DNA of 64,000 nucleotides from a virus. Lineage: Duplodnaviria; Caudoviricetes. The DNA lies in IMG/VR virus record IMGVR_UViG_3300009370_001552, positions 13,341 through 77,340 of that record; one strand, written 5' to 3'. A program made the position numbers and the translations under genes. The notes under the pieces were generated by a model. It did not search any database. It was not told the DNA's origin and saw only the letters and a list, made by a program, of their open reading frames with translations. Positions 2,747 through 51,972 of the stretch are shown in pieces. Each line of letters starts with the position of its first letter. The first letter of the stretch is position 1.

Positions 2747-3434
2747 ATATTTCAACCTCCCCACTATATTTAATTCTAATAAATTTCGATTTCATTACAT
2801 TCATAATTTCGTTTTGCCTCTTAATATCTATTTGTTTTAATTTACCATTTTTATTGTAATGGTGTGTTTCATCATATTCCACAACCACGCTTTTCTCTTT
2901 ATCATATCCATCTACGAAATATCTCGTATCTGGTATTTGATATTCTCCACCATTTTCTGCGTGTTGAAAGTTGTAACCATTTTCTTTTCCGTATTGTTCT
3001 ATTATTTTACAGGCTTCTGGGTTATACCTATTTTTCTTCCACTTTCTTAATGTATAAATAGATGCACATTTAATTGAACAATATTTAGCGGTATTCTTTC
3101 TATTATTTTGTACATAAAATACCATTTTGCAATTCTTACATTTAATTTCATATTCATCTTTTCCCAATGAAATTCCTATTTTATTTTCATTTGCACATTT
3201 TACAGAACAACATTTATACTTACTTTGATTTTTTTGTACATAAAACTCATTTTCACAATTTTCACAAATTTTATAAAACCCAGTAAATCTCCCAGTACTG
3301 TTTATTTTATTAGAACAACTATGACTACAATAGCGTGGAGTTTTTAATTTTAACATATATGGTTTATAATATACATCATTTTCACATTCCGAATTACAAC
3401 ACTTTTTATATTTTCCTGTTTTTTTTCTTCCCAT
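2739..3434 (-). CDS. Free-standing homing-type endonuclease: Cys-rich Zn repeats plus Vsr/PD-(D/E)XK-like domain
   Basis: Repeated CxxC...CSxxC units; C-terminal YFVDGYDKEKSVVVEYDETHH; likely start MGRKK at 3434. Confidence 0.75.
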   Translation of the reverse strand: MGRKKTGKYKKCCNSECENDVYYKPYMLKLKTPRYCSHSCSNKINSTGRFTGFYKICENCENEFYVQKNQSKYKCCSVKCANENKIGISLGKDEYEIKCKNCKMVFYVQNNRKNTAKYCSIKCASIYTLRKWKKNRYNPEACKIIEQYGKENGYNFQHAENGGEYQIPDTRYFVDGYDKEKSVVVEYDETHHYNKNGKLKQIDIKRQNEIMNVMKSKFIRIKYSGEVEIYV

Positions 3435-3564
3435 CACCACTCTCCCGTTTATCAATATATTCAATAATAATATGAGAAGTCCATTCATTCATTTTCAGGA
3501 AATTCTTCTTACAATAATCCTTCAATCTGTCATGAGCTTCTTTTGTTATTTTTAATGTTTTCAT
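3406..3564 (-). CDS. Small ribbon-helix-helix-like DNA-binding protein (not in ORF track)
   Basis: Manual translation MKTLKITKEAHDRLKDYCKKNFLKMNEWTSHIIIEYID... (52 aa), a strand-helix-helix pattern. Confidence 0.6.
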   Translation of the reverse strand: MKTLKITKEAHDRLKDYCKKNFLKMNEWTSHIIIEYIDKRESGDGKKKNRKI

Positions 3565-3580
3565 ATTATCTTCCATACTA

Positions 3581-3588
3581 ATAAATAT
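3581..3588 (-). promoter_or_regulatory. Putative phage promoter motif ATATTTAT
   Basis: Intergenic, just upstream of the RHH-endonuclease cassette; recurrent motif. Confidence 0.45.
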
Positions 3589-3627
3589 AAGAAAGTAGAA
3601 AAAAGTGTAGTTTTTTCTTCATTTAAT

Positions 3628-5079
3628 TTAAACTTTATATAATGTAAATCGTTTTCTTGGTGTCCATTTTTCAAATGCTGTATCCATATCATGAACAAAT
3701 CTGTCACACATTAGTTTTGCTGACATGCCCACTTCTTCTGTTAATAGATATTCTCTACCATATCCACCAAATTCTTTTCTCTTTTCAGGTCCTTCATTAT
3801 ACCACTCCATTAGTCTATCTGCCACATCATCAAACCTACATCTATCGTCAAATATATAAGGCGTTGGAATTGAACCCTGTAAACTTCTATTTGATGGCCA
3901 TACTGGTTTTACCCAATCTCCCCAAGTTAAATCAGGATTATCTTTCCATTTTCTATCATCATGTAATGAATGTACCCAATCATAATCTTTTTCCGTTAAT
4001 AGTTTGTCCTTATAAATAAATCCACACTGATCTTGTAGTCCACCAGTTACATTTACCGTTATTGGTGTTCCTGACATTAGACTTTCTGCCGTACCAAGTC
4101 CGTAACCTTCATTACTCGCAATGTTTATAGTTACATCTGCAATATTATAGAGAAAATTGAGTTGTTCGTCATCTATCTTTTGGTGTGAAAATATAACATC
4201 ATAATCAGGACAAACAGAATCAACCACTCGTGGTAAATCTGTTCCATTTTGGTCTACTGGTTGAGTGTGCATAATCAACACACATTTATCTGCATTTTCT
4301 TTTGGTAATTGGTCACAGAATGTTTTATATGCCATAATCACATCACTTGGAACTTTTCTTCTAATGTTTCTATTGTTCCAAAATACTATAAAATCCTTTT
4401 CTGTATTATGAAGTACTGATTTTCTATATCCCTGTAGTTTGTTCCAGGCTTCCATATCTAATTCATTTATTGGAAAGAACTTATCTTCTGGAATACCATG
4501 TGGAACATATGTACAATCCCAATCTGTTCTCGGTTTCTTCACGGCAGCATCTCTAACCATTGCAACAGATTGCTTGGATATGCTCATAATCAAATCAGAG
4601 CTTTCATAGAAAAACTCGTTGTATCTTGGAGTAGGGCGGTCGTCCCAGATTGAATAGTAAAAAATTGGAATGTGTTGGCGTAATTCATGTTCCATTTGAT
4701 ATAACCACCCCCAAAAGCGAGGGTCTGTATAATGAAGTATGGCGTCTGGTTTTTCAATGTTCATCAACTGACGAAGTAATTCCTGATTTCCATAACCACT
4801 AATTGGATATATTTTAAGATAGGCATCTTCAATTCCAGTTTCTTCACGGACTGAATCATTCATATCCACCACTTTACCTTCTTCTGGATGTTTGATTGCT
4901 CCACCTGCTTGACAAAATTTATATCTATGTAACATTCCAAGTACAAAGTTTTTGGAGACTGTACCAACTCCACTACTCATTCTTAAATCATCCGATAATA
5001 ATAATATAGTTTTTCTATCTTCTATCGGAAGAACTTCAGTTCCGTTTCTTATGTCTCCAATCTTATATTTTTTCATCAT
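3628..5079 (-). CDS. Glycosyltransferase family 4 (GT-B)
   Basis: SDDLRMSSGVG, WNNRNIRRK, ASNEGYGLGTAE (Ex7E). Confidence 0.85.
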   Translation of the reverse strand: MMKKYKIGDIRNGTEVLPIEDRKTILLLSDDLRMSSGVGTVSKNFVLGMLHRYKFCQAGGAIKHPEEGKVVDMNDSVREETGIEDAYLKIYPISGYGNQELLRQLMNIEKPDAILHYTDPRFWGWLYQMEHELRQHIPIFYYSIWDDRPTPRYNEFFYESSDLIMSISKQSVAMVRDAAVKKPRTDWDCTYVPHGIPEDKFFPINELDMEAWNKLQGYRKSVLHNTEKDFIVFWNNRNIRRKVPSDVIMAYKTFCDQLPKENADKCVLIMHTQPVDQNGTDLPRVVDSVCPDYDVIFSHQKIDDEQLNFLYNIADVTINIASNEGYGLGTAESLMSGTPITVNVTGGLQDQCGFIYKDKLLTEKDYDWVHSLHDDRKWKDNPDLTWGDWVKPVWPSNRSLQGSIPTPYIFDDRCRFDDVADRLMEWYNEGPEKRKEFGGYGREYLLTEEVGMSAKLMCDRFVHDMDTAFEKWTPRKRFTLYKV

Positions 5080-5106
5080 TGTTTCATTTATAACCTCATT
5101 TTCTAT

Positions 5107-5310
5107 TTAAAAATTACTACCACTTGCTTCAAGTTCAGTATATTCCACTATAGATTTCTTATATTCTTCATCATTCAAGTATCTATTCATTGACCTATTT
5201 ACCAATTTTTGTAGAGTGAATTCTTCTCTTAATGCCACTTCCTTAAATCTCTTATATAAATCCGTTATTATTTTAACGGAAGTTAGTTTTGCATCACTTT
5301 TCATATTCAT
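5107..5310 (-). CDS. Small ribbon-helix-helix-like protein
   Basis: KLTSVKI...LYKRFK...FTLQKLVNRSM pattern. Confidence 0.55.
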   Translation of the reverse strand: MNMKSDAKLTSVKIITDLYKRFKEVALREEFTLQKLVNRSMNRYLNDEEYKKSIVEYTELEASGSNF

Positions 5311-8840: not shown

Positions 8841-8909
8841 TTACTCCTCTATTGTTATAAATTCACATCCAAGAAAATCTATTATTTCTTGTTTTCTTCG
8901 TTCATCTCG
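8841..8909 (-). pseudogene. C-terminal relic of Vsr-like endonuclease
   Basis: Translates RDERRKQEIIDFLGCEFITIEE*, nearly identical to the C-terminus of 36963-37796 (RDERRKQEIIDHLGCKFIEIKE*). Confidence 0.75.
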
Positions 8910-8917
8910 TAGTAAAG

Positions 8918-9997
8918 TCATTTTTTAAAAACAAATATTGGTTCGTACTTATAACCGGCCCCCATTACTGAAGATAATGTTAGTTCTATCACATCTTCAT
9001 AAGTAAATCCAACTTCCTTTGCAACTTTAATTGTACCTTCTTCTATAAATTTGTGTTTTGGTGTGTTCGATATATTAATCAACATATACTTTCCATCTTT
9101 TAATCCGTAATAACAATTTTCCATAGTCTGTCTCATAAACTTATTCATCCAAGCTTGTTCACTTGGAAACTTTATATAACTTTGAGTTGGTTCATCACTA
9201 TATTTTTCAGTGTCGAAATATGGTGGACTTGTGAAACATAGGTCAAGTGAATTTTTATCAGGACGATAAACTTCTGACCCACACTTATATATATCAACTT
9301 TTTTCCCTAAATACGAAAAATCTTTTTTCATTTCTAATAGACCTTCGTATGTCCTTGTAGCTGGTTCAGTTCCAATATAATGTTTAGTATTAGATGCTGC
9401 TAAAAATCCTAATAACCTGCCACCCCAACCACTTGACATATCTCTAATCACTGGACCACCATATTTTTCATAAATTAGTTTTGCTGCCGTTGGTCTGAAA
9501 TTAGATACTGATTGTGTTCCTGTATAAATCTTAATTGATTGTCGTAATCTGTTTTCGTGAAACTTATTATGGGTTCTCTCTCCTTCTCCACTCCAATGTT
9601 TAAGTTGCCACTTCCAACATTTCTTTATGGTTGACTTAAACTTATCATCATCTAAAAAAGTTTCCATTGGTGAGTTCATAGAATTTCCACATTGTATTTC
9701 CCAGAAAAACGGGAAGTAGGACCAAGCTAATCGTAAAGCATGCATAGTCTGTATAATTTTCTTATCCTCAAATATAGTGGATACATCAAATTTACGCAGT
9801 TTCCTCATATGAGAATGTTTCTCATCTTCTCGTATTTTGTAGTGAGGGAAACCGTGTCTGCGGTAATACTTGAATATGACATCTACACCATAATCAATAT
9901 CTACGGTATCTATATTATTTGTAACTCTCTCAAACTCTAAATCATCGAAATCATAATCAAAGAAATTACCGAGTGTTGAATAATCCGTTCTACTCAC
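8918..9997 (-). CDS. SAM-dependent DNA methyltransferase-like protein
   Basis: DMSSGWGGRLLG (motif I-like) and FTSPPYF (motif IV); paralog of 33075-34295. Confidence 0.75.
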   Translation of the reverse strand: MSRTDYSTLGNFFDYDFDDLEFERVTNNIDTVDIDYGVDVIFKYYRRHGFPHYKIREDEKHSHMRKLRKFDVSTIFEDKKIIQTMHALRLAWSYFPFFWEIQCGNSMNSPMETFLDDDKFKSTIKKCWKWQLKHWSGEGERTHNKFHENRLRQSIKIYTGTQSVSNFRPTAAKLIYEKYGGPVIRDMSSGWGGRLLGFLAASNTKHYIGTEPATRTYEGLLEMKKDFSYLGKKVDIYKCGSEVYRPDKNSLDLCFTSPPYFDTEKYSDEPTQSYIKFPSEQAWMNKFMRQTMENCYYGLKDGKYMLINISNTPKHKFIEEGTIKVAKEVGFTYEDVIELTLSSVMGAGYKYEPIFVFKK

Positions 9998-35276: not shown

Positions 35277-35985
35277 CCTGAACTGCCACGAGGTAATACG
35301 TAGCATCGTATTCGTCTACTTTAAAATTGATCCGTGATAATCCTTGTTCACTTACTTCAAGCGTAGCACTTTCACATTCCTTATTTGCAGTCAATACATC
35401 CTTAAACAGAGTAGCATTAAATGAAACTTTATCAATATCTTCATATTCTTCAGTTTCTACTGGAATTGTAACTCTGTTTGTATTAATTGACGAATAACCT
35501 ATAACCAATTTTGTATCACCATTATCAGTAATTACAGTAAAAGTATCCGTATCTGGTAATGCTGATTTACCATTGATAAACCTAACAATAAAGTTAGTAT
35601 CCACTTTAATCTTCAACTGAAACTCTGGAAGTTTTTTCAATGCTGGTGGTTGGTTAATTACTGATTTATCCGACAACATAAAATTGACTTTAGAATGTTT
35701 ATCCGACACTTCTAATGCAATTGCTTTATCACCGGCTTGAGTTAAATTAAGTGTTACATCATCATCTAAAACTCCCAATAATCTACTAAATTGTTCTGTA
35801 TCATATACTCCCAACTCTGCATCTTGAAAAGTCCAACTATTCATTGATAATTCACCAAGCATTGCTTTATCTCCAGTAATAAAACGGGTACTTAATGTAT
35901 CATCGTTACTGTTTATAACTACCGCATTTACATTACCACCCAAATGGTATTTGTCTATAAAACGGGTTAATTTGTGTTTATTCAT
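35266..35985 (-). CDS. DNA polymerase sliding clamp (gp45-like)
   Basis: Size, two-lobed beta pattern, GLSRINF...YYLV C-terminus; adjacent to PolB. Confidence 0.7.
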   Translation of the reverse strand: MNKHKLTRFIDKYHLGGNVNAVVINSNDDTLSTRFITGDKAMLGELSMNSWTFQDAELGVYDTEQFSRLLGVLDDDVTLNLTQAGDKAIALEVSDKHSKVNFMLSDKSVINQPPALKKLPEFQLKIKVDTNFIVRFINGKSALPDTDTFTVITDNGDTKLVIGYSSINTNRVTIPVETEEYEDIDKVSFNATLFKDVLTANKECESATLEVSEQGLSRINFKVDEYDATYYLVAVQDVN

Positions 35986-36018
35986 TTACTATTCTCCTAT
36001 TGTTTAATCTGTATATAC

Positions 36019-36028
36019 ATATATATCA
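36019..36028 (-). promoter_or_regulatory. Putative phage promoter motif TGATATATAT
   Basis: Upstream of clamp gene; TGATATATATGTATATAC. Confidence 0.45.
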
Positions 36029-36044
36029 GTTTTATTATTCAAAA

Positions 36045-36961
36045 TTAAAAAAATCTTTCCAGACTTTGCTCTTCATCTACCGGTGATCCCCAGTCTAAAC
36101 ACTCATAAAATAAATTGAGTTTTTTAGTGAGTGCCCTATCATATATCTTGTCGTAATCCATATTTTCCTTAATAAACTGCATAATTTCTGGTGGATCTTC
36201 ATAACCTTTATATGCCACTACTGTTAATCCAAGTGGATTATTCTTTAGATACACCCATCGTATTTTATCTCCATTACTAATAAACCCATATTTTTTATCT
36301 CGTTTATAGTATCGTAGTAAATCATTATAACTTACTGATGCTCTTACATGAACTGGAATACCTTTCTTTAATACTGTAAATACTGATGAGTTTTTATTGT
36401 CCTTTTTAATATATTTCCACATTCCCTTTACACCAGTTGGAGACGATATTTCATCCAAATCTTTTAATCTCATATTTTTCTTAAATCTGGTTATTCTATG
36501 GTCTATTTTATCTCGTGGAACACTTGCCAAAATATCTTCCAATACATCACTTAATAACTGTCTAAATGCTGGTGCGAAATTACTACGCACCGTATCCAAT
36601 CCCTTTACCATAGTCTTGTTTACCTGAACTCCATTATCACTAATGATTTTCATACCATATCGTTTCTTGGTAATAAATAAACCGGACTTTGCTATAATTT
36701 CCTGTTTAATCTCAAATCTGTGTTTATCTAAATTACAAAACTTCTTTGCAAAATAATCATATGAATTATTTAAATATTCTTGAACTTCGGTTGCTATTTC
36801 ATTTATTCGTTGTGCCATCATTACATCACTCATTTCCTTACCCTTAAATCTATGGTTAATGAGTTTTAGTGCTGATACGAAAATGGAGTCAGTCAGGTGT
36901 CAATATAGATCACATGATCCATATTGACATTAGGCAGCCTCCTTATTTTTTTTATTTTCAT
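36045..36961 (-). CDS. polB: Family B DNA polymerase, C-terminal subunit with 5-nt coding gap in motif C
   Basis: ATG 36961 (AAGGA upstream) gives MKIKKIRRLPNVNMDHVIYIDT then TGA; shifted frame resumes TDSIFVSA... in frame with ORF 36045-36833 (KKRY, KGLDTVR, VRWVYL-like thumb motifs). Confidence 0.8.
36898..36929 (-). promoter_or_regulatory. 14-bp mRNA stem-loop immediately 5' of the coding gap
   Basis: UGUCAAUAUGGAUC-AUGU-GAUCUAUAUUGACA, one G-U pair. Confidence 0.7.
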
Positions 36962-36962
36962 T

Positions 36963-37796
36963 CTATTCCTTAATTTCTATAAATTTACAACCAAGATGGT
37001 CTATTATTTCTTGTTTTCTTCTTTCATCTCGTTCTACTTGTTTTTTATGGAATGGTTCATAATACTCTATAACCACGTTTTTTTCTTTATCATAACCATC
37101 TACAAAATATCCCAATTCTTTAATGTGATATTCACCACCGTTTTCAGCGTGTTGGAAATTGTATCCGTTTTCTTTTCCGTATTGTTCTATTAGTTTACAG
37201 GCTTCTGGGTTATATCCAGGCATCATTTGTCCACCATTAAAAACATTTCTCTCAATTCTCTTAATTGCAGATTTTCTCATTCTCCGCAATTCCTCCGTTC
37301 TCTTCGGGCGTTTATAGTTTCCACTATCTTCACCAGTCCGGATTTTTAATTTACTTACCTCTTTATTCATTTCATCTGCAATTTCAACACCAAACTTATC
37401 TACCCATACCTGGTAATAACTGCTACCATAATTTCCATTCCGTTCTCCACTCGCACCACGAGATTTGTTAAACTCATCAAATTGTTCTTTAGTCCAACCA
37501 TACTTCTTTTTCTTATATTCAAATGAGTTGGAATGTGCTTGTTTTTCTCTATATTCATCCCATTTGATTTTTCCATCTATTTCACCGTGTTTTTTAATCA
37601 TATTCTCTAAAGTATTAACTCGTTTACTTTGATATTTAATTTTAGCAACTTTAGCTTCATCTAAATCCATTCCCTTAAATATAGTAAAGTATTCTATTGT
37701 TCCAGGTACTCTACTCAATCTCATTTTTTCAGCTTCTTCTTTTTCATAACCTTTGCCTAACCAATGTTGTAGTGTTCTAGCACTTCCTCTACTCAT
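36963..37796 (-). CDS. Free-standing Vsr-like homing endonuclease between polB halves
   Basis: YFVDGYDKEKNVVIEYYEPFH core, shared with 2739-3434. Confidence 0.8.
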   Translation of the reverse strand: MSRGSARTLQHWLGKGYEKEEAEKMRLSRVPGTIEYFTIFKGMDLDEAKVAKIKYQSKRVNTLENMIKKHGEIDGKIKWDEYREKQAHSNSFEYKKKKYGWTKEQFDEFNKSRGASGERNGNYGSSYYQVWVDKFGVEIADEMNKEVSKLKIRTGEDSGNYKRPKRTEELRRMRKSAIKRIERNVFNGGQMMPGYNPEACKLIEQYGKENGYNFQHAENGGEYHIKELGYFVDGYDKEKNVVIEYYEPFHKKQVERDERRKQEIIDHLGCKFIEIKE

Positions 37797-37816
37797 AATT
37801 TTTCTCCGTTAAGTTT

Positions 37817-37842
37817 TATATAGACACATCTGTATCTATATA
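37817..37842 (-). promoter_or_regulatory. Hairpin/operator-like copy of the polB YIDTD-coding site
   Basis: TAT ATA GAT ACA GAT out of frame after the polB-N stop; folds as an 11-bp stem with AGAU loop. Confidence 0.5.
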
Positions 37843-37849
37843 TAAATAT
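37842..37849 (-). promoter_or_regulatory. Putative phage promoter motif ATATTTAT
   Basis: TGATATTTAT upstream of the polB endonuclease. Confidence 0.45.
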
Positions 37850-37852
37850 CAC

Positions 37853-39610
37853 TTAACCCAAAAAATCATCTGTTTCCAGTAAATCTTTTACTTTTATTTC
37901 CATTTTTCTACCGTTTCGTATTACATCAATTCTATTATTTTCGTGTAATTTTCTAACTTCACCATTTTCCAATTCAACTTCAACGGGAGGTCCCAATTCA
38001 CTATTATACTTATGATTTGCTATTTTTGCAGTGAACTTAATTAAATCCTGTCCTACTGTCGTCACAGAAGCCGCATTATCCAAATCATAAAATCTCCATC
38101 CCTGAAGTCCAAGTACGCCGTAAAGTGAATTAAGTAAAACCTTCTGGATATATTGCCGTCTATTAAAATACTCGTATCGTTCATCATTTCCTTCATCTGC
38201 AAATTTCCTTGCTAATTTTCTAAATTCCTTTCGTGTATCAAACCACTTGGATAGAATAGTTGAAATTAAACCTGCCTTATCCGTTTTATATAATATACCT
38301 TCACTTGAAATTGATACTTCATTATCATTAAAAAATGTCTCTAATTCTGTATTAGTTAATTGTCCTTTCCTTTTCCCATTTAATATAATAGAATGTGTCT
38401 TTTTCTTCTTTCCTATAAAATCTTGAGCGTTCCACCCAACTACTTTTCCAAATTTTGTTTCTGGACTTATATTTAAGCTCATAATTATAGAAGGATACAT
38501 ACTTGTAATATCCAAATCATATACCCAGTCATGTTTACCCCGTTGTGGGCGTTTTACATATGCACCTACAAACTTGTTATCTGTAAACTCACCCTTTTCT
38601 GGTTTATTAGGGGCAACGATATTCAATTTCTTCAAGTGAGTTAAAATTGCTCCTTCTAAATATCTACTACTGAAATATATATCTTCATATGGAACATGAC
38701 CAATATGACAAATACCTCGTGCAATGTCAATAAAATCTAATTTATCATCCAATTGTTTTACTATTCTAACATCATGAATATTATATTCCACAAACTTTCT
38801 CAAATCATTTTCATATAAATCATTCAATGTTCCATCATAACTTATTTTAGTTGAACCAACCTCTGTTTGACCTATATCATCCAATCTATATGATGGTCTT
38901 GATCCAAATGTAAAATCTTTATAGAGTAATAGATAATCTAATACACTTACCCCTGCTATTTTATATCGTTTAGTGTATTTACTATACATCACTTTTGATA
39001 TCGGTGATAAATTGTCTGCAACACTTTGACCGAGAACTCTAATTGTTCTATTATATAAATATGGAATATCGAAACCATCTACATTCCAACCAGTAATTAT
39101 AGTAGGTCGTAATTCTAAATATTTTTGGTAAAACCTCTGTAACAATTCATATTCCGTCTGACAACTTTCTACTACACTCTTGCCAAATCCTGTTGTATCT
39201 AATGTCTTACGTTCATCTAATACTAAACAAGTGTAAACATTTCTGATATTATCCCACATAGCAATTGAAGTTATTTTATTCGGTGCCTTCATTGGGTCTG
39301 GAAATCCCTCTGTAACTTCACACTCAATATCAAATATGAATATCTTATGTCCAGTGGACGGTTCTTCACTTTTCCCATACATATCAATCAAAGTTCTCAT
39401 TTCAGGATTTACATCACTTTCCCACAATCCCTGTGCAGTCTTATCCCATCTATATACTTTCTTTAATTTATCACCATATAAAGATGCAAACGTTCCATAA
39501 TTATCTTTAATATAAGCATACTTTTTATATTGCGTTGTTATATGTCCGTTACGATCATCCCAAATGTGGACAACCCCCTTGAATGGTTCTACATAGATAT
39601 TTTGATAAAT
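37853..39610 (-). CDS. polB: Family B DNA polymerase, N-terminal subunit (exonuclease, motifs A and B)
   Basis: FDIEC (ExoI), GWNVDGFDIPY, YNIHDV, DITSMYPS (A), KVLLNSLYG (B); frame extends upstream of TTG 39427 to an ATT at 39610 with GAGG RBS. Confidence 0.9.
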   Translation of the reverse strand: MYQNIYVEPFKGVVHIWDDRNGHITTQYKKYAYIKDNYGTFASLYGDKLKKVYRWDKTAQGLWESDVNPEMRTLIDMYGKSEEPSTGHKIFIFDIECEVTEGFPDPMKAPNKITSIAMWDNIRNVYTCLVLDERKTLDTTGFGKSVVESCQTEYELLQRFYQKYLELRPTIITGWNVDGFDIPYLYNRTIRVLGQSVADNLSPISKVMYSKYTKRYKIAGVSVLDYLLLYKDFTFGSRPSYRLDDIGQTEVGSTKISYDGTLNDLYENDLRKFVEYNIHDVRIVKQLDDKLDFIDIARGICHIGHVPYEDIYFSSRYLEGAILTHLKKLNIVAPNKPEKGEFTDNKFVGAYVKRPQRGKHDWVYDLDITSMYPSIIMSLNISPETKFGKVVGWNAQDFIGKKKKTHSIILNGKRKGQLTNTELETFFNDNEVSISSEGILYKTDKAGLISTILSKWFDTRKEFRKLARKFADEGNDERYEYFNRRQYIQKVLLNSLYGVLGLQGWRFYDLDNAASVTTVGQDLIKFTAKIANHKYNSELGPPVEVELENGEVRKLHENNRIDVIRNGRKMEIKVKDLLETDDFLG

Positions 39611-39674
39611 AATATAACCTCTTTTGTTTATTTATGAGTATTCTTAGTCGTCATTATCATCAATTGTGTATTAT

Positions 39675-41309
39675 TTATGTGACGCATGTATCAGAATTAC
39701 AGAATTTTTCTACAATCGCTTCATTGCCTTTGACTTGTCTAAATGATAAATGTTTTAATTTCTTCAATAATTTATTATATGTCTTTTCATCAATTTCTTC
39801 ATATGGCATTTGTTTGTATGCTCCGAGTTCGTGTCGTGGTAAGAAAGAAACTGACTTTAATTTATATTGGTAAAAATCTAATGCTGACTTAATTTGATCA
39901 CCTTCTGTTTCTGGGTCAAATGTAATGGTAACTGAAACAGCATTGTCTGCCCAATGTTCGGCCATAAATGCTGCCAACTCTAATTGTTCCCATATTGAAA
40001 CTGACTTTAATGTTTTTATTCCGTCACCCACATCAACTGGAACTTCAACTACTACCGTTGAATCTTCTTGACCTACTGCTGGTTCTATATGATACCCAGC
40101 ACTCTTTAACGCTTTTATCAATGGACTATCGTTACCTAATCTAATTCGTCGTATGTAAAAACGAGATTCTGGATAATGTATTCCAGGAGTTGCTCCAGCT
40201 AAAAGGCTGATTGAACCTGATGGTTTATTTGTAGAAAGTCTAATACTCCTTGGGATAGCAAACCAATCCGAATATATTTTATCATATTCTTTTAATGAAT
40301 TGTATCCAGACCTTAACCAATCTTTCAATATAGATAATGAATTATTAGTTAAAAACTGTGTAACTCCACTTACAGAAGTTCCCACTCGTCTGTTTCGTAA
40401 CATTACTCTGTTAGTTTCTGGCCAATGGGTGTCTAATAAAGTTACTGTCTTTGAATAAAGGTATGCATATTTTAATGACTTAATGAAATCTTCTTTACTT
40501 TCGTGTCTATCTGGAAATACTTCTACAAGATTGCATTTCTCGCCAGATTCTAACACGATTTCGCCACAGGGATTGGTCCCCATCGTTCTATTATCACTTA
40601 CACCATTAGTCCCATCTCCCATTCTTTTATTATTATGAGCATTTTCTAACCAAATTAGTCCAGGTTCACCATTATTTTTAATTCGTTCTGCTATATCAGT
40701 ATAATCCATACCAAGTTCTGCTAATACTGAATTGTTTGAAGCCCAACCGAAGTCAGCTCTTTCTGGATTCTTTTTATAATCTTTTAAGTCCAAAAATTGT
40801 TCAGTATTGTCTCCTGCTGCTAGCAATGCGCTGCGTCGCACATTTCCAGCCACGACAGCCTTTCCAATTAAATTAAATATATCAACTATATTTCGTTCAC
40901 TAATTGGACTACCAATACTTTCTGTTAAAATCTCTGTTACTTTATCGTGTAATGCCTTTAACGGCTTATACCCAGATGAAGTTCCACCAAATGTTTTTAT
41001 AATGGCACCTTCCGGTCTGATTTTAGAATAATCAAATACTGGTCGTTGAGAGTTACCAAAGAAAGAATCTATAACATATCCTAAACTTTCTACCCATCCC
41101 TCTCTACTGTCTGGAACAGTAAAATTAAATTCGTTATGAGATGGTGATTTAATTGTTATTTGGTCTGCACCTTTTGTATCAAATCCCACACCAACTCCAC
41201 AATTATGAACAACATTACCATTTCCCAAAACATATGTGTTATTTCCTGGTATGGTTAAATCATAAAATAGTTCATCGTTTGGTATATAGTTTTTATTAAT
41301 AATTTTCAC
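39675..41309 (-). CDS. nrdJ: Class II (B12) ribonucleotide reductase, C-part fused to split-intein C fragment
   Basis: 36-aa Int-C ending VVHN|C; GNVRRSA, TNPCGEI, TNKPSGS, C-terminal CNSDTC. Confidence 0.93.
   Translation of the reverse strand: MKIINKNYIPNDELFYDLTIPGNNTYVLGNGNVVHNCGVGVGFDTKGADQITIKSPSHNEFNFTVPDSREGWVESLGYVIDSFFGNSQRPVFDYSKIRPEGAIIKTFGGTSSGYKPLKALHDKVTEILTESIGSPISERNIVDIFNLIGKAVVAGNVRRSALLAAGDNTEQFLDLKDYKKNPERADFGWASNNSVLAELGMDYTDIAERIKNNGEPGLIWLENAHNNKRMGDGTNGVSDNRTMGTNPCGEIVLESGEKCNLVEVFPDRHESKEDFIKSLKYAYLYSKTVTLLDTHWPETNRVMLRNRRVGTSVSGVTQFLTNNSLSILKDWLRSGYNSLKEYDKIYSDWFAIPRSIRLSTNKPSGSISLLAGATPGIHYPESRFYIRRIRLGNDSPLIKALKSAGYHIEPAVGQEDSTVVVEVPVDVGDGIKTLKSVSIWEQLELAAFMAEHWADNAVSVTITFDPETEGDQIKSALDFYQYKLKSVSFLPRHELGAYKQMPYEEIDEKTYNKLLKKLKHLSFRQVKGNEAIVEKFCNSDTCVT
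41202..41309 (-). mobile_element. Split intein C fragment (36 aa)
   Basis: MKIINK...FYDLTI..NNTYVLGNGNVVHN followed by Cys+1. Confidence 0.92.
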
Positions 41310-42775
41310 AATATTTTCCTCTCGTCTATCAATTTCAAAACTTTATTAAAATCTTGTTTTACATCATTTTCCCAAATAACTAAAACATTATATCCCATAT
41401 TTTCTAATTCATTTATTCTATTTCTATCAGTTAAATGAACAGATGAAAATGAAATATTATCAGCAATGCTATCTGATTCGGTATATATTTCTGGATTCAT
41501 ATGCCAATAATCACCGAAAAACTCAACAATTAAATTTAACTCTGGTATATAAAAATCACAACAATATGTACAATCTTTACCATGTACAAAATATTGATGA
41601 ATTGTTTTTAGATATTCATTTGATATTACAGAATACACCTTATATTCCATTTTTGAAACTTTATTCATATTTTTCAAATTAATAAGTGATGCTCGTCTGC
41701 TATTATCACTTATTATTTTTTTAGCATCATTTATATTATATCCACGGTTTATCCAAAATTCCTTACTAAATGAACTTGTTTTAATCGCAAATTCATATGC
41801 TAACTTTTTAGATTCACTCATCGAATATCCAATATTTAGCCAATAATATATGCATTTACGTTGTTTACGTGCTCGTTTAGATTGGTTTTTATGAATTATA
41901 TAAATACTTTCTTCGTCAGAAAATCCTAATCTGTTCCAATATTTTATATTGTTATAACTACTATCAGATAATTTTTTTGACTTTTCTTCATATAATTCAC
42001 TCCCACGTTTATTACCATATTTATTTACATAGTATTTTTTAGATGAAAAATCTTGATTTCCACTTATTATTTTTTTAGCCACACTTTCATCATATCCAAG
42101 TTTTATCCAATATTCTACACATCGAACATTATTACTTCGTTTAATATAATCGGCTTCATTATTAGTGATGCCCCTTGCTTTAAAATACTGTGTAGTTGGA
42201 TATCTATTAGCTTTAGATACCCTATCTACTGATTTATATTTTTTATATTCTTCAACGGACCCCAACCTGGTAATTAAATTTTCTCGTGTTAATGAACACC
42301 TCGATTTTGCTTTAGTTGCCAATTTCTTCGCACTCAATATTGATTCACCGCGAATCTCCCAATATTCAGGATATTTATTACTGGTTGTGCGTTTTATATA
42401 ACTAGAATACGTTATAGCGTCATCGTTTGAAAATCCATTTTCTATCCAAAATTTTGTAGTTTTAACAAGCGTATTAGTAATAGCTTTATGTTTAATTTTA
42501 TTAAAAACATCACTTAAATTTCTAATTTTCCAAAATATAGGATTTTTACTATCAGATAGAATCCTATCCTTTCGTAATCGAAGTTTATTGTTAATTTCAT
42601 CTTCCGAATGTCCTTTTATTTTCCACTGGTTTATCCAATACCCCTCACTACCTCTACTATCTGATGTAGCACATTTTTTACATACCGTCTCGTTAAAAAT
42701 TGAATTCTCCAACTGATATTTAGTAGAATATATTTGAGTTGCCCCACAATTATTACAGTTTTTTTTATGTTTCAT
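41306..42775 (-). CDS. Free-standing Vsr-like homing endonuclease with repeat-rich N-terminus
   Basis: C-terminal CDFYIPELNLIVEFFGDYWH...D..R...GYNVLVIWEND. Confidence 0.85.
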   Translation of the reverse strand: MKHKKNCNNCGATQIYSTKYQLENSIFNETVCKKCATSDSRGSEGYWINQWKIKGHSEDEINNKLRLRKDRILSDSKNPIFWKIRNLSDVFNKIKHKAITNTLVKTTKFWIENGFSNDDAITYSSYIKRTTSNKYPEYWEIRGESILSAKKLATKAKSRCSLTRENLITRLGSVEEYKKYKSVDRVSKANRYPTTQYFKARGITNNEADYIKRSNNVRCVEYWIKLGYDESVAKKIISGNQDFSSKKYYVNKYGNKRGSELYEEKSKKLSDSSYNNIKYWNRLGFSDEESIYIIHKNQSKRARKQRKCIYYWLNIGYSMSESKKLAYEFAIKTSSFSKEFWINRGYNINDAKKIISDNSRRASLINLKNMNKVSKMEYKVYSVISNEYLKTIHQYFVHGKDCTYCCDFYIPELNLIVEFFGDYWHMNPEIYTESDSIADNISFSSVHLTDRNRINELENMGYNVLVIWENDVKQDFNKVLKLIDERKIL

Positions 42776-42811
42776 TTTATTTTCCTAATTTATATACTTA
42801 TGTCGTTATTA

Positions 42812-42819
42812 ATAAATAT
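42812..42819 (-). promoter_or_regulatory. Putative phage promoter motif ATATTTAT
   Basis: Upstream of the nrdJ endonuclease. Confidence 0.45.
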
Positions 42820-42827
42820 ACGAAATT

Positions 42828-43133
42828 TTAATTTTCATTAGAAATATAAAAATTCTCTATGTTATCATTACCATTAATATCTTTAGCTTCTACCCACCCC
42901 CTGTTTATAGTTAAAAATAAATGGTCTTCTGTACATCTAACAGTACTACCATCTTCAAATTCCAACTCAATTATTTTCTTATCCGACACCTCATTTTTTA
43001 ATACTTTGTCTGGATATATAAAAGAATATCTTTTAGTTTCTTCATTAAACGATAGTACTTTGTCATCAACTGTTATATCTTTAATTTTTTTATTTCCACC
43101 ATCAGTTAAAATTAAAGTGTCTGGATGAAAACA
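42828..43133 (-). mobile_element. Split intein N fragment (101 aa)
   Basis: Block A CFHPDTLILT and block B VRCTEDHLF. Confidence 0.92.
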
Positions 43134-43568
43134 CATCAACATATCCATAGCAAATACAAATGGAAATGATAGACTATCTTTTATATTTTCTGTACTAATA
43201 AAATTACAATTGAATAGTGCGGGAGTGAGTTTCTTCTTTGTAATAATATCTGTACCCATTGCCCACAAACCACGTCCGGGAGGAAGTAATTTCATATTAA
43301 ACATTCTATCATACATTTCTTGTGCACTTCGTTGAGCTTGCCATGGATTCCAACCCAATCTATGTTTTTCAATCCACTCTTTCTGAATTGTATATGTGCC
43401 CTCTACAACTCTACGAACTGTTTCCCACCATTGTTCATTTTTTCCATCTTCCTTTATACGAGAATAGGTTCTCATATATACTAAATGTCCCAAACCATTA
43501 AATCCAAATGGTTCTTTTTTTCTTTTATAATTTTCTATAAAATTTTTACTTAAAACGAATTTTTCCAT
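42828..43568 (-). CDS. nrdJ: Class II RNR, N-part fused to split-intein N fragment
   Basis: RTYSR, PPGRGLWAMG, LFNC; then CFHPDTLI...CTEDH. Confidence 0.93.
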   Translation of the reverse strand: MEKFVLSKNFIENYKRKKEPFGFNGLGHLVYMRTYSRIKEDGKNEQWWETVRRVVEGTYTIQKEWIEKHRLGWNPWQAQRSAQEMYDRMFNMKLLPPGRGLWAMGTDIITKKKLTPALFNCNFISTENIKDSLSFPFVFAMDMLMCFHPDTLILTDGGNKKIKDITVDDKVLSFNEETKRYSFIYPDKVLKNEVSDKKIIELEFEDGSTVRCTEDHLFLTINRGWVEAKDINGNDNIENFYISNEN

Positions 43569-43620
43569 ATAAACTTTTACTCCTTATATCCATTTTCTAT
43601 AACTTCCGCATCTCACTAAT

Positions 43621-43628
43621 ATAAATAT
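43621..43628 (-). promoter_or_regulatory. Putative phage promoter motif ATATTTAT
   Basis: Between helicase stop and nrdJ start. Confidence 0.45.
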
Positions 43629-43633
43629 AACAC

Positions 43634-44998
43634 TTATTCAAATCCACCCATATCTTTATCATTATTATACTTATTTGATAACTGTTTTCTTAAATATTCT
43701 TCACTATTATCCATTTTCTTTTGAGTAACCTGACCGTCTTGTGTATTTGCTTCGTAAATCTGAATACTACCGTTGTTTGTGTTTATACTCGCTGGAAATG
43801 TAATACCATCAACTCCAAATCTATTTTTAATCACATGGAAACGACCAGTATTTGCTATTTTATCTTCTACTTTTCTACTCATAGATACAACAAAATCTGC
43901 AATCATTACCTTTGCATATGATTCTGCTACTTTACTGGCATCAATTACATCTTCCTCTAATGATGACCGGTTGGCCTGACTGGCAGTCCATATTGGCATT
44001 TCATATTCACCTGCAAGTCCTCTTAAATCTTCATAAATACTTTCTAATACGTGTCGTTTTTCACTACCAACTCCACGGAGAATATCTGCATAATCTACCA
44101 AAATTAAATCTATATTTGTTCCCTGTAATTCTATCTGTTTTAGATGTGATGATAGAGTTTGAACTGTTGCACCTTTAGTTGGAAAATATTTGATCAACAG
44201 AGTCCCCTTTAATTCTGCAATTTTCTTCTTTACATCATCTTTATAGTATTTTATATTTGCTGTAGTCACTCCACTAAATACAGTATCAAATCGTAATCCT
44301 ACATAATTTTGGTTTAACTCTAATGTATAATACACTACATTTAATCCATTTTTTACTGCATTTGCACCCAGTATTTGCAAAAACCATGATTTTCCAATTC
44401 CAGCTGGGGCGACTACCACTCCCAATTCACCTGCTCCTAACCCACCATCCATTATTTCATCTATTGGATCCCAACCAGTTTTTACGGTGTCTCTGGCCGA
44501 GTTTGCAAGTCGTTCTTCTATTCCACTAATATACTCATGTCCTAATTCTCTATCACCACCAGCTTTCATTGCTTCGTCTATTAGATTTTTAATCTCATCA
44601 TATTTACCAATTTCTAATAAATCAACACTATCCATGATTGCAGCTTTAATGACTTGATTTTTACAGAACTCTAATATCTGTTCTTGTATAAATGGTAAAT
44701 CAGTAGACTCTATGTATCTCCAACTTTCTTTTAGATTTTCTACTACTGCCATCTTTAGAATATCATTATCTAAATCATCTATTTTTACTTTTAATACTTC
44801 TAATGTCGGGGCTGTTTTATACTCAAAGAAATAATCTCGTATGGTTCTGGATAGAAATCGGTTTGCGTCACTCTCAAAATATGATGGTTCTAATATATCA
44901 CTTATAGTTTGTAGGAACTTTTTATCACCGAGTAATGATGATATAATTTTACATTGGAATGTTTTTCCAAAAATTTGTAAAGTAGATTTATCATTCAT
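43634..44998 (-). CDS. Replicative DnaB/gp41-like helicase
   Basis: APAGIGKS, TLEL, LVDYAD, WTASQANR, KNRFG. Confidence 0.93.
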   Translation of the reverse strand: MNDKSTLQIFGKTFQCKIISSLLGDKKFLQTISDILEPSYFESDANRFLSRTIRDYFFEYKTAPTLEVLKVKIDDLDNDILKMAVVENLKESWRYIESTDLPFIQEQILEFCKNQVIKAAIMDSVDLLEIGKYDEIKNLIDEAMKAGGDRELGHEYISGIEERLANSARDTVKTGWDPIDEIMDGGLGAGELGVVVAPAGIGKSWFLQILGANAVKNGLNVVYYTLELNQNYVGLRFDTVFSGVTTANIKYYKDDVKKKIAELKGTLLIKYFPTKGATVQTLSSHLKQIELQGTNIDLILVDYADILRGVGSEKRHVLESIYEDLRGLAGEYEMPIWTASQANRSSLEEDVIDASKVAESYAKVMIADFVVSMSRKVEDKIANTGRFHVIKNRFGVDGITFPASINTNNGSIQIYEANTQDGQVTQKKMDNSEEYLRKQLSNKYNNDKDMGGFE

Positions 44999-51799: not shown

Positions 51800-51931
51800 C
51801 TATTTAAGTTCTATAAATTCGCATCCAAGAAAATCTATAATTTCTTCTTTCCGTCTTTCATCTCGTTCTTTTTGATTTTTATGGGATTTTTCATAGTATT
51901 CTATTACTACATTTTTATCTTCATCATACCC
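51800..51931 (-). pseudogene. C-terminal relic of Vsr-like endonuclease
   Basis: [43 protein letters not shown], matching the C-terminus of 36963-37796. Confidence 0.8.
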
Positions 51932-51934
51932 ATT

Positions 51935-51944
51935 ATATATATCA
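51935..51944 (-). promoter_or_regulatory. Putative phage promoter motif TGATATATAT
   Basis: Directly abuts the relic, upstream of csp. Confidence 0.4.
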
Positions 51945-51972
51945 AGTAAATTCGCCAAAATCGATTTTATTT

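What the first reader, a model, noticed from the sequence alone, without database searches (positions are those of the whole stretch)
36045..39610. Fractured DNA polymerase B with degenerate, apparently non-splicing intein-like docking tails
Seen: PolB is split between motif B and motif C. The N subunit ends with a 45-aa extension (37853-37990, PVEVELENGEVRKLHENNRIDVIRNGRKMEIKVKDLLETDDFLG) that resembles the last strands of an Int-N; compare this window's NrdJ Int-N, IELEFEDGSTVRCTEDH...EAKDINGND. It has no Cys1 block and no TxxH. The C subunit starts MKIKKIRRL, like an Int-C first strand, but has no HN-C/S/T. Established: fractured phage genes with split inteins and an intervening Vsr-like endonuclease are known, and T4-like gp43A/B splits occur in the fingers domain. 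Inference: an eroded split intein persists as a beta-strand clasp holding a two-chain polymerase together, at a split point different from gp43A/B.
Basis: partly seen in the sequence, partly recalled or inferred. Interest (0 to 1): 0.8.

Follow-up and report, generated by a model that had tools for sequence, protein, structure and literature searches.

The report
Split phage polymerase with dead-intein tails
A marine T4-like phage encodes its DNA polymerase as two chains around a homing-endonuclease gene. The extra tail on the first chain is a catalytically dead leftover of a split intein, and the second chain can only be made if the ribosome hops over 5 non-coding bases inside the catalytic motif.

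Summary
PolB (minus strand) is split between motifs B and C into an N piece (39610-37853) and a C piece (from ATG 36961). A 277-aa homing-endonuclease gene lies between them.

About 148 unsplit relatives have neither the 45-aa tail nor the roughly 11-aa head. Five other split lineages have both.

The tail is homologous to positions 56-94 of the 102-residue N half of split inteins. The profile-profile comparison gave 96% probability, P 4e-9 and score 43.5, against 9.6 +/- 2.1 for 200 column shuffles. An AlphaFold model of the tail matches only Hint-fold structures, though weakly. Cys1, TxxH, the terminal HN and more than half of the fold are missing, so splicing is excluded. The head matches the first strand of an intein C half only weakly.

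The tail is under purifying selection (dN/dS 0.13-0.30) and survives loss of the endonuclease. The docking role is inferred, not shown.

This finding left out that motif C (YIDT|DS) is interrupted by a conserved coding gap. The gap is 5 nt here and 7 nt in a distant lineage. It has matched Thr take-off and landing codons, a stop codon right after take-off, and a cassette-specific upstream hairpin.

The whole element parallels the T4 mobA/gene 39-60 cassette. It is a new variant of a known kind.

The parts
37853..39610 (-). PolB N piece: exonuclease domain, motifs A and B, plus the tail. Probable ATT start at 39610.
   Evidence: Pfam DNA_pol_B_exo1 and DNA_pol_B positions 15-213. Translation and ribosome-binding site. 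45-90% identical relatives.
37856..37990 (-). 45-aa C-terminal tail: a catalytically dead remnant of split-intein Int-N positions ~56-94 (block B strand to the end).
   Evidence: hhalign Prob 96%, P 4.2e-9, score 43.5 against shuffles of 9.6 +/- 2.1, max 20.8. AF2 predicts four beta strands with pLDDT 73-79. All 17 listed structural matches (Z 2.5-5.1) are Hint folds. dN/dS is 0.13-0.30.
37808..37857 (-). Hairpin with a late-promoter-like TATA-rich element upstream of the endonuclease gene.
   Evidence: RNAfold -16.4 kcal/mol, z -4.5, 0 of 200 shuffles as stable. The same feature is described for fractured-gene endonucleases (PMC2677866).
36963..37796 (-). 277-aa homing-endonuclease gene. N-terminal W-x3-G helical repeats; C-terminal nuclease with weak Vsr/DUF559 likeness.
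   Evidence: Pfam DUF559 E 0.086. phrog_22677, shared with the NrdJ endonuclease. BLASTP to the NrdJ endonuclease repeats, E 0.001. 58% identical homologue in L156. Paralogous nuclease domains elsewhere in the window.
36929..36961 (-). About 11-aa basic N-terminal head of the C piece (MKIKKIRR...); possibly the first strand of Int-C.
   Evidence: Conserved in all split lineages. Net charge +3 to +5. hhalign to Int-C positions 2-8 scores 10.9 against 6.5 +/- 1.7; 4 of 150 shuffles score as high.
36896..36928 (-). Cassette-borne copy of the 11 native codons that lead into motif C (...DHVIYIDT). It contains a 9-10 bp RNA hairpin (about 36925-36902) that ends just before the GAC ACC take-off.
   Evidence: Folding energy of the upstream 36 nt is -6.2 to -9.5 kcal/mol in all four split lineages, against -2.0 +/- 1.6 (minimum -5.5) in 84 unsplit segments. 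Compensatory pairs are seen.
36891..36898 (-). Coding gap in motif C: take-off ACC (36898-36896), stop TGA (36895-36893), landing ACT (36893-36891). Decoding resumes at GAC 36890.
   Evidence: The same gap occurs in the L004 group and L132, with only synonymous changes on both sides. L156 has ACG TAG T ACG, a 7-nt version. All 148 unsplit relatives read GAY ACN GAY TCN.
36045..36890 (-). PolB C body: second Asp of motif C, the KKRY motif and the thumb.
   Evidence: Pfam DNA_pol_B positions 259-444. dN/dS 0.04-0.07. 42% identity to the unsplit Mel-JY01 PolB.

Best explanation
A mobile homing-endonuclease cassette sits in the polymerase gene between the codons for ...ELG and the strand that leads into motif C.

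The cassette carries, in order:
- a 45-aa tail fused to the N piece;
- a hairpin and promoter;
- the endonuclease gene;
- a new start codon with a basic head of about 11 aa;
- its own copy of the 11 replaced codons;
- a 5-nt coding gap.

The tail descends from the C-terminal 40% of a split-intein N half, of the same family as the intact NrdJ split intein 2 kb upstream. It has lost every catalytic residue, so the two chains are never ligated (shown by sequence).

The polymerase therefore works as a two-chain enzyme. The mostly acidic tail and the basic head most likely pair as the two strands that flank the canonical intein split site. This is the N2 lobe plus the start of Int-C, which drive the electrostatic 'capture' step in real split inteins. 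That pairing would hold the palm domain together (inferred).

To make the C chain, peptidyl-tRNA(Thr) leaves ACC when the stop codon enters the A site and re-pairs with ACT 5 nt downstream. This restores YIDTDS (inferred from comparative sequence data).

By analogy with T4 mobA/gene 60, the gap probably destroys the endonuclease's target in the highly conserved motif-C DNA (speculative).
For: Split, tail and head:
- Seen in the window and in five further lineages.
- Absent from 148 unsplit relatives.

Intein origin of the tail:
- hhalign gave 96% probability and P 4e-9. Every lineage alone aligns in the same register. Shuffled and reversed controls stay at or below 20.8.
- The pairwise profile comparison with the window's own NrdJ Int-N gave P 2.5e-4.
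- The ESM Atlas top cluster carries Intein_splicing, at score 0.86; this is a lead only.
- The AF2 model and VIA-align returned only Hint folds. The best is 5bkh: Z 5.1, 2.2 A over 49 residues, chain residues 71-119.

Functional constraint:
- Tail dN/dS is 0.13-0.30.
- Tail and head are kept where the endonuclease is deleted (L132), truncated (L004), has a premature TGA (L156) or is replaced by 4 kb of other genes (LR756508).
- Tails have net charge -3, -3, -3, +1 and -10. Heads have +3 to +5.

Patchy phylogeny: at least two gains or losses on the PolB tree, plus LR756508 far outside it.

Hop:
- The gap is conserved in assemblies from at least seven metagenomic datasets.
- Take-off and landing codons co-vary as matched Thr codons: ACC or ACT to ACT, and ACG to ACG.
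- The stop codon follows the take-off codon in both gap types.
- The gap lengths (5 and 7 nt) need opposite frame shifts.
- Both flanks are under purifying selection.
- The upstream hairpin is specific to the cassette.

Literature:
- Capture by the N2 lobe and Int-C: PMC11923092.
- The mobA cassette with about 44-aa extensions, a copy of the replaced codons, and a bypass that protects against nicking: bioRxiv 10.1101/2022.08.31.505936.
- Fractured genes: PMC2677866.
Against: - Pfam (E up to 10) and a PDB sequence-profile search found no Hint match for the tails. The structural Z scores are low (5.1 at most), and the model rests on a 4-sequence alignment with mean pLDDT 64.
- The similarity of the head to Int-C is weak.
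- The L156 tail is not acidic.
- No homologue with a full intein at this site was found among the 120 best hits.
- For the mobE-split NrdA, the tails were reported as not needed for association, only for activity (cited in the 2022 preprint). Docking may therefore not be their role.
- No complex could be modelled here, and there is no protein or ribosome data.
- A -1 shift in this lineage and a +1 shift in L156 would also join the frames. Each would add two residues inside the motif.
Confidence: 0.65

Rival explanations
1. The tail and head are adaptor extensions brought by the endonuclease cassette, as in mobA/gene 39-60 and mobE/nrdA. Their role is not docking. The head and the copied codons would serve the recoding, as nascent-peptide and hairpin signals. 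The tail would repair local palm structure or partner binding.
For: - The cassette architecture matches the mobA element point for point.
- The basic head lies 14-20 residues before the take-off codon.
- The hairpin is specific to the cassette.
- The NrdA tails were reported as dispensable for association.
Against: - LR756508 keeps a similar head and tail but has an intein, not a gap, in motif C. The head is therefore not tied to hopping.
- The intein ancestry of the tail points to the strand pairing that split inteins already use.
- This rival is not exclusive with the main explanation.
Confidence: 0.25
2. The tail is a neutral relic, a read-through of decayed intein DNA with no present function. 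The two chains associate through the native polymerase interfaces alone.
For: - Other split PolBs and split enzymes work without inteins (PMC2677866 introduction).
- The tail evolves faster than the core: 39% against 56% identity in L156.
Against: - dN/dS is 0.13-0.30.
- The length is fixed at 44-45 aa, with 8 invariant columns across lineages whose PolB is only 37-56% identical.
- The tail is retained after every kind of endonuclease loss.
Confidence: 0.1
3. The gene is a pseudogene or carries an assembly error. The phage would use another polymerase, or the break is an artefact.
For: There is an in-frame stop inside the catalytic motif. No whole genome is held in which to look for a second polymerase.
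Against: - The same break occurs in independent assemblies from at least seven metagenomic datasets and in a MAG contig.
- Differences on each side are synonymous in the proper frame.
- dN/dS is 0.04-0.07 on both pieces.
- A differently built gap sits at the same codon in L156.
Confidence: 0.03
4. The two halves are still ligated by protein trans-splicing through a non-canonical intein.
For: There is homology to Int-N, and an intact split intein of the same family lies next door.
Against: - Only about 56 of the 125 or more residues of a Hint fold remain.
- There is no residue-1 nucleophile, no TxxH and no terminal Asn.
- There is no +1 nucleophile in three of four lineages.
Confidence: 0.01

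Closest known systems
Fractured genes: split intein plus free-standing Vsr-like or GIY-YIG endonuclease (Dassa et al. 2009, PMC2677866)
   Same: - An essential replication or nucleotide-metabolism gene is broken in two, with a free-standing endonuclease between the halves.
- There is a hairpin with a late-promoter-like element upstream of the endonuclease.
- Endonuclease loss is seen in some loci.
- The tail is homologous to the Int-N of this very family, and a canonical example (NrdJ) lies 2 kb upstream in the window.
   Different: - The intein halves are truncated to about 45 and 11 residues, with all catalytic blocks lost, so no trans-splicing is possible.
- The product is a two-chain enzyme.
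- An extra coding gap lies downstream.
T4 mobA / gene 39-gene 60 cassette (Bonocora et al. 2011; bioRxiv 10.1101/2022.08.31.505936)
   Same: - The endonuclease splits an enzyme at a metal-binding catalytic region.
- It adds a C-terminal extension of about 44 aa and an N-terminal extension.
[quoted passage not shown]
- The tails persist after endonuclease decay.
   Different: - The endonuclease is Vsr-like with helical repeats, not HNH.
- The host gene is PolB, not topoisomerase.
- The gap is 5 or 7 nt, not 50 (20 in one clade).
- The N-terminal extension is 11 aa, not 44.
- The intein ancestry of the extension is demonstrated here but not described there.
mobE-split NrdA of Aeromonas phage Aeh1 (as summarised in the 2022 preprint and in PMC2677866)
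   Same: An endonuclease insertion creates a genes-in-pieces enzyme with added tails that is still active.
   Different: There is no intein likeness and no recoding reported. The tails were reported as needed for activity rather than for association.
Aes123 PolB1 split intein of T4-like Aeromonas phages (PMC11923092; PDB 9hth)
   Same: A T4-like PolB encoded in two pieces, with intein halves at the junction. The site lies in or next to motif C.
   Different: That intein is complete and splices (Ser1, terminal Asn). It sits at DTD|S, which is 11-12 codons downstream of the split described here.
Short translational hops: stop-hops of Weiss et al. 1987 and the likely bypass in the Streptomyces phage Hau3 terminase (review PMC5009743)
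   Same: P-site tRNA re-pairs to a matched, non-overlapping codon a few nucleotides downstream while a stop codon is in the A site.
   Different: Here the hop lies inside the catalytic motif of an essential polymerase. It is conserved across lineages in two gap lengths and is physically linked to an endonuclease cassette.

Membership tests
Functional split intein (class 1) | Cys/Ser/Thr as first intein residue at the N-extein junction | tested here: not met
   The tail starts with P/T/K/E-P directly after ...ELG in all lineages.
Functional split intein (class 1) | Block B TxxH | tested here: not met
   The aligned positions read L-H-E-N, V-Y-E-N or I-D-F-N.
Functional split intein (class 1) | Int-C ending in (H)N followed by a Cys/Ser/Thr +1 | tested here: not met
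   The head is about 11 aa and runs straight into the polymerase sequence with no HN. Only L156 has a Thr near the junction.
Functional split intein (class 1) | Complete Hint fold (about 125 residues or more over both halves) | tested here: not met
   45 + 11 residues. hhalign covers only Int-N positions 56-94 of 102.
Hint/intein superfamily (homology only) | Significant sequence-profile or structural similarity to Int-N | tested here: met
   hhalign 96% probability, P 4e-9, with shuffle z of about 16. Only Hint folds appear among the structural matches, but Z is 5.1 at most. Pfam and PDB sequence searches were negative.
Fractured-gene arrangement (Dassa 2009) | Host gene halves flank a free-standing Vsr-like or GIY-YIG endonuclease with an upstream hairpin | tested here: met
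   ORF layout. Hairpin z -4.5. The endonuclease shares phrog_22677 and repeat modules with the NrdJ Vsr-like endonuclease. The DUF559 match of its nuclease is weak, E 0.086.
Fractured-gene arrangement (Dassa 2009) | Halves carry a working split intein that restores the one-chain product | tested here: not met
   See the split-intein rows above.
mobA-type split-and-bypass cassette | Endonuclease between the halves, with a C-terminal extension on ORF1 and an N-terminal extension on ORF2 | tested here: met
   Compared with the description.
mobA-type split-and-bypass cassette | [quoted passage not shown] | tested here: met
   ACC TGA CT (window), ACT TGA CT (L004, L132), ACG TAG T ACG (L156). No product was observed.
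mobA-type split-and-bypass cassette | HNH (MobA) endonuclease and topoisomerase host gene | tested here: not met
   The host gene is PolB. The endonuclease has no HNH match.
mobA-type split-and-bypass cassette | The gap protects the cassette-bearing allele from its own endonuclease | not testable with these tools
   This needs a cleavage assay.
Programmed translational bypass | A single polypeptide that spans the gap | not testable with these tools
   Only comparative sequence evidence is available.
T4-like gp43A/gp43B split polymerases | Same split point | not tested
   No gp43A/B locus was fetched, and the literature search on the names gave nothing useful. The Aes123 PolB1 site (DTD|S) differs.

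The most novel reading that the evidence does not exclude
The extension tails that homing-endonuclease cassettes add to the genes they split may in general be half-Hint remnants of split inteins. This would mark an evolutionary route from trans-splicing 'fractured genes' to non-covalent two-chain enzymes.

In support, the C-terminal extension of T4 gp39 and six relatives (the mobA cassette) aligns to the same Int-N region, positions 52-88. hhalign gave 63% probability, P 7e-5 and score 25.0, against 10.4 +/- 2.4 (max 19.0) for 200 shuffles.

Coupled to this, the PolB cassette would carry a second natural, conserved, endonuclease-linked translational bypass in phages. It is a 5- or 7-nt hop inside motif C that shields the conserved motif-C DNA from the cassette's nuclease.
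Probability: 0.3. Interest if true: 0.9.

Novelty: new variant of a known kind. Interest (0 to 1): 0.75.

Why it matters
- It links two ways in which mobile endonucleases live inside essential genes without killing the host: split inteins, and split-plus-tails cassettes. It suggests that the second can evolve from the first.
- A 45 + 11 residue half-Hint pair that associates without splicing would be a compact natural heterodimerisation module. It would also be a direct test of the 'capture' step of split-intein assembly.
- The linked 5- or 7-nt gap would add a rare natural case of efficient ribosome hopping, in the catalytic motif of a replicative polymerase. Two natural variants are available for mechanistic comparison with T4 gene 60.

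Tried and rejected
- **Group I intron.** An Rfam scan at E up to 1 over 35500-44500 found nothing.
- **Pfam and PDB sequence profiles.** Pfam on the N piece and on the five tails at E up to 10, and a PDB sequence-profile search, gave no Hint hit. 9hth, the Aes123 PolB1 intein, appeared only at E 1.3.
- **Head against Int-C.** The score was only marginal. The T4 gp60 N-terminal extension against Int-C gave nothing, and the gp39 extension against the PolB tails gave nothing.
- **Intermediates with a full intein at this site.** None was found among the 150 Int-N relatives or the 120 best PolB homologues.
- **More tail-bearing loci.** The tail-pattern scan of metagenome contigs found nothing. The word search on the tail found one cluster. 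The L156-type gap pattern in IMG/VR gave none. Genome contigs gave only an unsplit relative and a distant one.
- **Recent transfer of the endonuclease.** Identity between the window and L156 endonucleases (58%) is no higher than for the host gene, so there is no sign of recent transfer. The lower synonymous divergence of the tail (0.26-0.38 against 0.65-1.03) is only suggestive.
- **Phage tRNA(Thr).** No tRNA gene lies in the window.
- **gp43A/gp43B literature.** The search gave nothing useful.
- **Complex of the two chains.** The prediction tool takes single chains only, so no complex could be folded.


Full report
**Anatomy**

All genes in the region lie on the minus strand. Reading 5' to 3', the layout is:

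- A canonical fractured NrdJ: an N half with a 101-aa Int-N (43568-42828), a 489-aa Vsr/DUF559-like endonuclease (42775-41306), and Int-C plus the C half (41309-39675). Pfam supports each part.
- The PolB N piece, 39610-37853.
- A 277-aa endonuclease ORF, 37796-36963.
- The PolB C piece, from ATG 36961.
- A sliding-clamp gene, 35985-35266 (phrog_223).

The N piece has the exonuclease domain and motifs A and B. Its frame has no ATG, GTG or TTG before codon 62. A ribosome-binding site precedes ATT 39610, and relative P0002 has Met at that position.

After ...SELG the N piece continues for 45 residues (37990-37856) and then stops.

**What this finding did not mention**

The C-piece frame ends after 22 codons (...YIDT, then TGA). 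The rest of the polymerase, DSIF... to 36045, is in another frame. The DNA reads ATT GAC ACC TGA CT GAC TCC. Skipping 5 nt restores the universal YIDTDS. I found this before looking at earlier notes. The same reader had filed it as a separate finding.

**Is the tail a real feature?**

Scans of IMG/VR, metagenome contigs and phage genomes gave about 165 related loci.

In 148 of them (84 distinct junctions) the gene is continuous and reads ...ELG-TxKDY-CIYIDTDS. These have no tail, no head and no gap.

The split form occurs in:

- the window;
- one genotype, 90% identical, seen in assemblies from at least seven metagenomic datasets (L004-L007, L011, L089-L091);
- L132/P0002, 89% identical;
- L156 and P0155, 56% identical;
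- the 484-kb phage LR756508, 37% identical.

All have a 44-45-aa tail with 8 invariant columns and a basic MK(I/T)K-type head.

That test does not refute the finding.

**Is the tail intein-derived?**

Direct searches fail:

- Pfam at E up to 10 and a PDB sequence-profile search gave no Hint hit.
- BLASTP of the tail against the window's NrdJ Int-N gave only E 0.027.

I then collected Int-N relatives of the NrdJ intein. I extracted the 52 that end at the protein's C terminus, which marks them as split inteins, and ran hhalign against the five tails. Results:

- Probability 96%, P 4.2e-9, score 43.5. Tail positions 3-44 align to Int-N positions 56-94 of 102.
- Two hundred column shuffles gave 9.6 +/- 2.1 (max 20.8), and the reversed tails gave 11.9.
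- Each lineage alone aligns in the same register, with scores of 20.7-34.2.

Further lines of evidence:

- The ESM Atlas feature search put a viral Intein_splicing cluster first, at score 0.86. This is a lead only.
- An AlphaFold2 model of the last 65 residues used a 4-sequence alignment. It predicts four beta strands in the tail, with pLDDT 73-79 there and a mean of 64.
- Foldseek found nothing significant, but 9 of its first 31 rows are inteins, several superposing about 40 residues at 1.5-1.7 A.
- All 17 entries listed by VIA-align (Z 2.5-5.1) are inteins or Hedgehog autoprocessing domains. The best is 5bkh: Z 5.1, 2.2 A, 49 residues, chain residues 71-119. These Z values are low, so they count as consistency rather than proof.

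The head aligns to Int-C positions 2-8 with score 10.9, against 6.5 +/- 1.7 for shuffles. Four of 150 shuffles reach it. This is weak.

**Can it splice?**

No. The following are all missing:

- the first 55 or so Int-N positions, including residue 1;
- TxxH;
- about 25 Int-C residues, including the terminal Asn;
- the +1 nucleophile, in three of four lineages.

**Is the tail functional?**

- Among the three close lineages the tail has dN/dS 0.13-0.30. The polymerase core has 0.04-0.07.
- Tail and head survive every state of the endonuclease: intact (window), a TGG-to-TGA change at codon 79 (L156), reduced to a nuclease-only fragment of a different subtype (L004), deleted to a 9-codon stub (L132), or replaced by 4 kb of unrelated genes (LR756508).
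- Tail net charges are -3, -3, -3, +1 and -10. Head net charges are +3 to +5.
- In real split inteins, association starts by electrostatic capture between the disordered C-terminal lobe of Int-N (N2) and Int-C (PMC11923092). The retained pieces correspond to N2 and the start of Int-C.

That they dock the two polymerase chains is an inference. For the mobE-split NrdA the tails were reported as needed for activity, not for association.

**The coding gap**

- L004 and L132 have ACT TGA CT GAT in place of the window's ACC TGA CT GAC. Every difference is synonymous in the upstream frame before the gap and in the downstream frame after it.
- L156 has ACG TAG T ACG GAT at the same codon. It has a different stop and a 7-nt displacement, and again the take-off and landing codons are identical.
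- A simple frameshift would have to be -1 in one lineage and +1 in the other. It would lack slippery sites and would insert two residues between the catalytic Asp residues. A hop of peptidyl-tRNA(Thr) gives YIDTDS in both.
- The 24 nt just upstream form a 9-10 bp hairpin in all four split lineages (-6.2 to -9.5 kcal/mol), with compensatory changes. The 84 unsplit segments average -2.0 +/- 1.6 kcal/mol and never go below -5.5.
- Upstream mRNA pairing and a stop in the A site are known stimulators of gene 60 bypassing (PMC5009743).
- No product was observed, so the hop remains inferred.

**A mobile cassette**

On a FastTree of 96 distinct PolB sequences, the window clade (support 100) is nested among unsplit sequences. 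L156 sits elsewhere with unsplit neighbours (support 96). This requires at least two gains or losses, and LR756508 lies far outside the tree. FastTree support values are local only, and L156 has a long branch.

The layout is: tail, hairpin/promoter, endonuclease, head, a copy of the replaced codons, gap. This matches the mobA element of T4 gene 39/60 point for point. That element adds extensions of about 44 aa and a bypass that protects against MobA nicking. Its tails also outlive the endonuclease (bioRxiv 10.1101/2022.08.31.505936).

Motif C is a hot spot for such elements:

- LR756508 carries a full intein at YTD|TDS.
- The Aes123 PolB1 split intein sits at DTD|S.

That the gap protects against the cassette's own nuclease is an analogy only.

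**A wider lead**

The C-terminal extension of T4 gp39 and six relatives aligns to the same Int-N region, positions 52-88. hhalign gave 63% probability, P 7e-5 and score 25.0, against 10.4 +/- 2.4 (max 19.0) for shuffles. If this holds, intein ancestry of such tails may be general.

**Limits**

- No complex could be modelled.
- No whole genome is held for the window.
- The Vsr assignment of the PolB endonuclease is weak: DUF559 E 0.086. It does share repeat modules and phrog_22677 with the NrdJ endonuclease.
- The gp43A/B split points were not examined.

**Verdict**

The element is a new variant of known endonuclease-split gene cassettes. Within this scan, the hop had already been noted on the same window.

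Noticed in passing
window 36888-36961 (-): A 5-nt coding gap lies inside PolB motif C. It has matched Thr codons, a TGA after take-off, and a cassette-specific upstream hairpin. It is conserved in the L004 and L132 lineages, and a 7-nt version (ACG TAG T ACG) occurs in L156.
   Followed up: yes
window 39605-39634 (-): PolB appears to start at ATT 39610, behind an AAAGAGG ribosome-binding site. The first canonical start codon is 61 codons further in. Relative P0002 has Met at this position.
   Followed up: partly
L171 (T4 NC_000866) 3778-3945 and L177-L182: The C-terminal extension of T4 gp39 (mobA cassette) and six relatives aligns to split-intein Int-N positions 52-88. hhalign score 25.0, against a shuffle maximum of 19.0.
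   Followed up: partly
L003 (LR756508) 1-417 and 3423-5288; L001 4001-7054: A 484-kb uncultured phage has the same PolB split, tail and head. In addition it has full inteins in motif B and in motif C (YTD|TDS; Ser1, Thr+1). About 4 kb of unrelated genes, including two paralogous ORFs of about 260 aa, lie between the halves.
   Followed up: partly
window 2739-3488 (-), 51800-51958 (-), 8844-8930 (-): There are further copies of the PolB endonuclease's nuclease domain. One is a 249-aa free-standing paralogue with Cys-rich zinc-finger-like repeats in place of the W-x3-G repeats (64% identity over 88 aa). The others are a 52-aa relic ORF (75%) and a 29-aa fragment (69%).
   Followed up: no
L156 6648-7487: The endonuclease homologue (58% identical) has TGA where the window has a Trp codon, at codon 79. 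This is either a pseudogene or a sequencing error. The tail, head and gap are nevertheless intact.
   Followed up: partly
window 36938-36946 (-): A perfect Shine-Dalgarno-like AAGGAGG (tandem AGG Arg codons) lies inside head codons 6-8. It is conserved in L004 and L132 and is weaker (AAGGAAA) in L156. It sits about 40 nt upstream of the take-off codon. Its role is unknown.
   Followed up: no
PolB tree: Both split lineages sit on long branches: the window clade stem is 0.23 and L156 is 0.65, against a median tip length of 0.018. This suggests faster polymerase evolution after the split.
   Followed up: no
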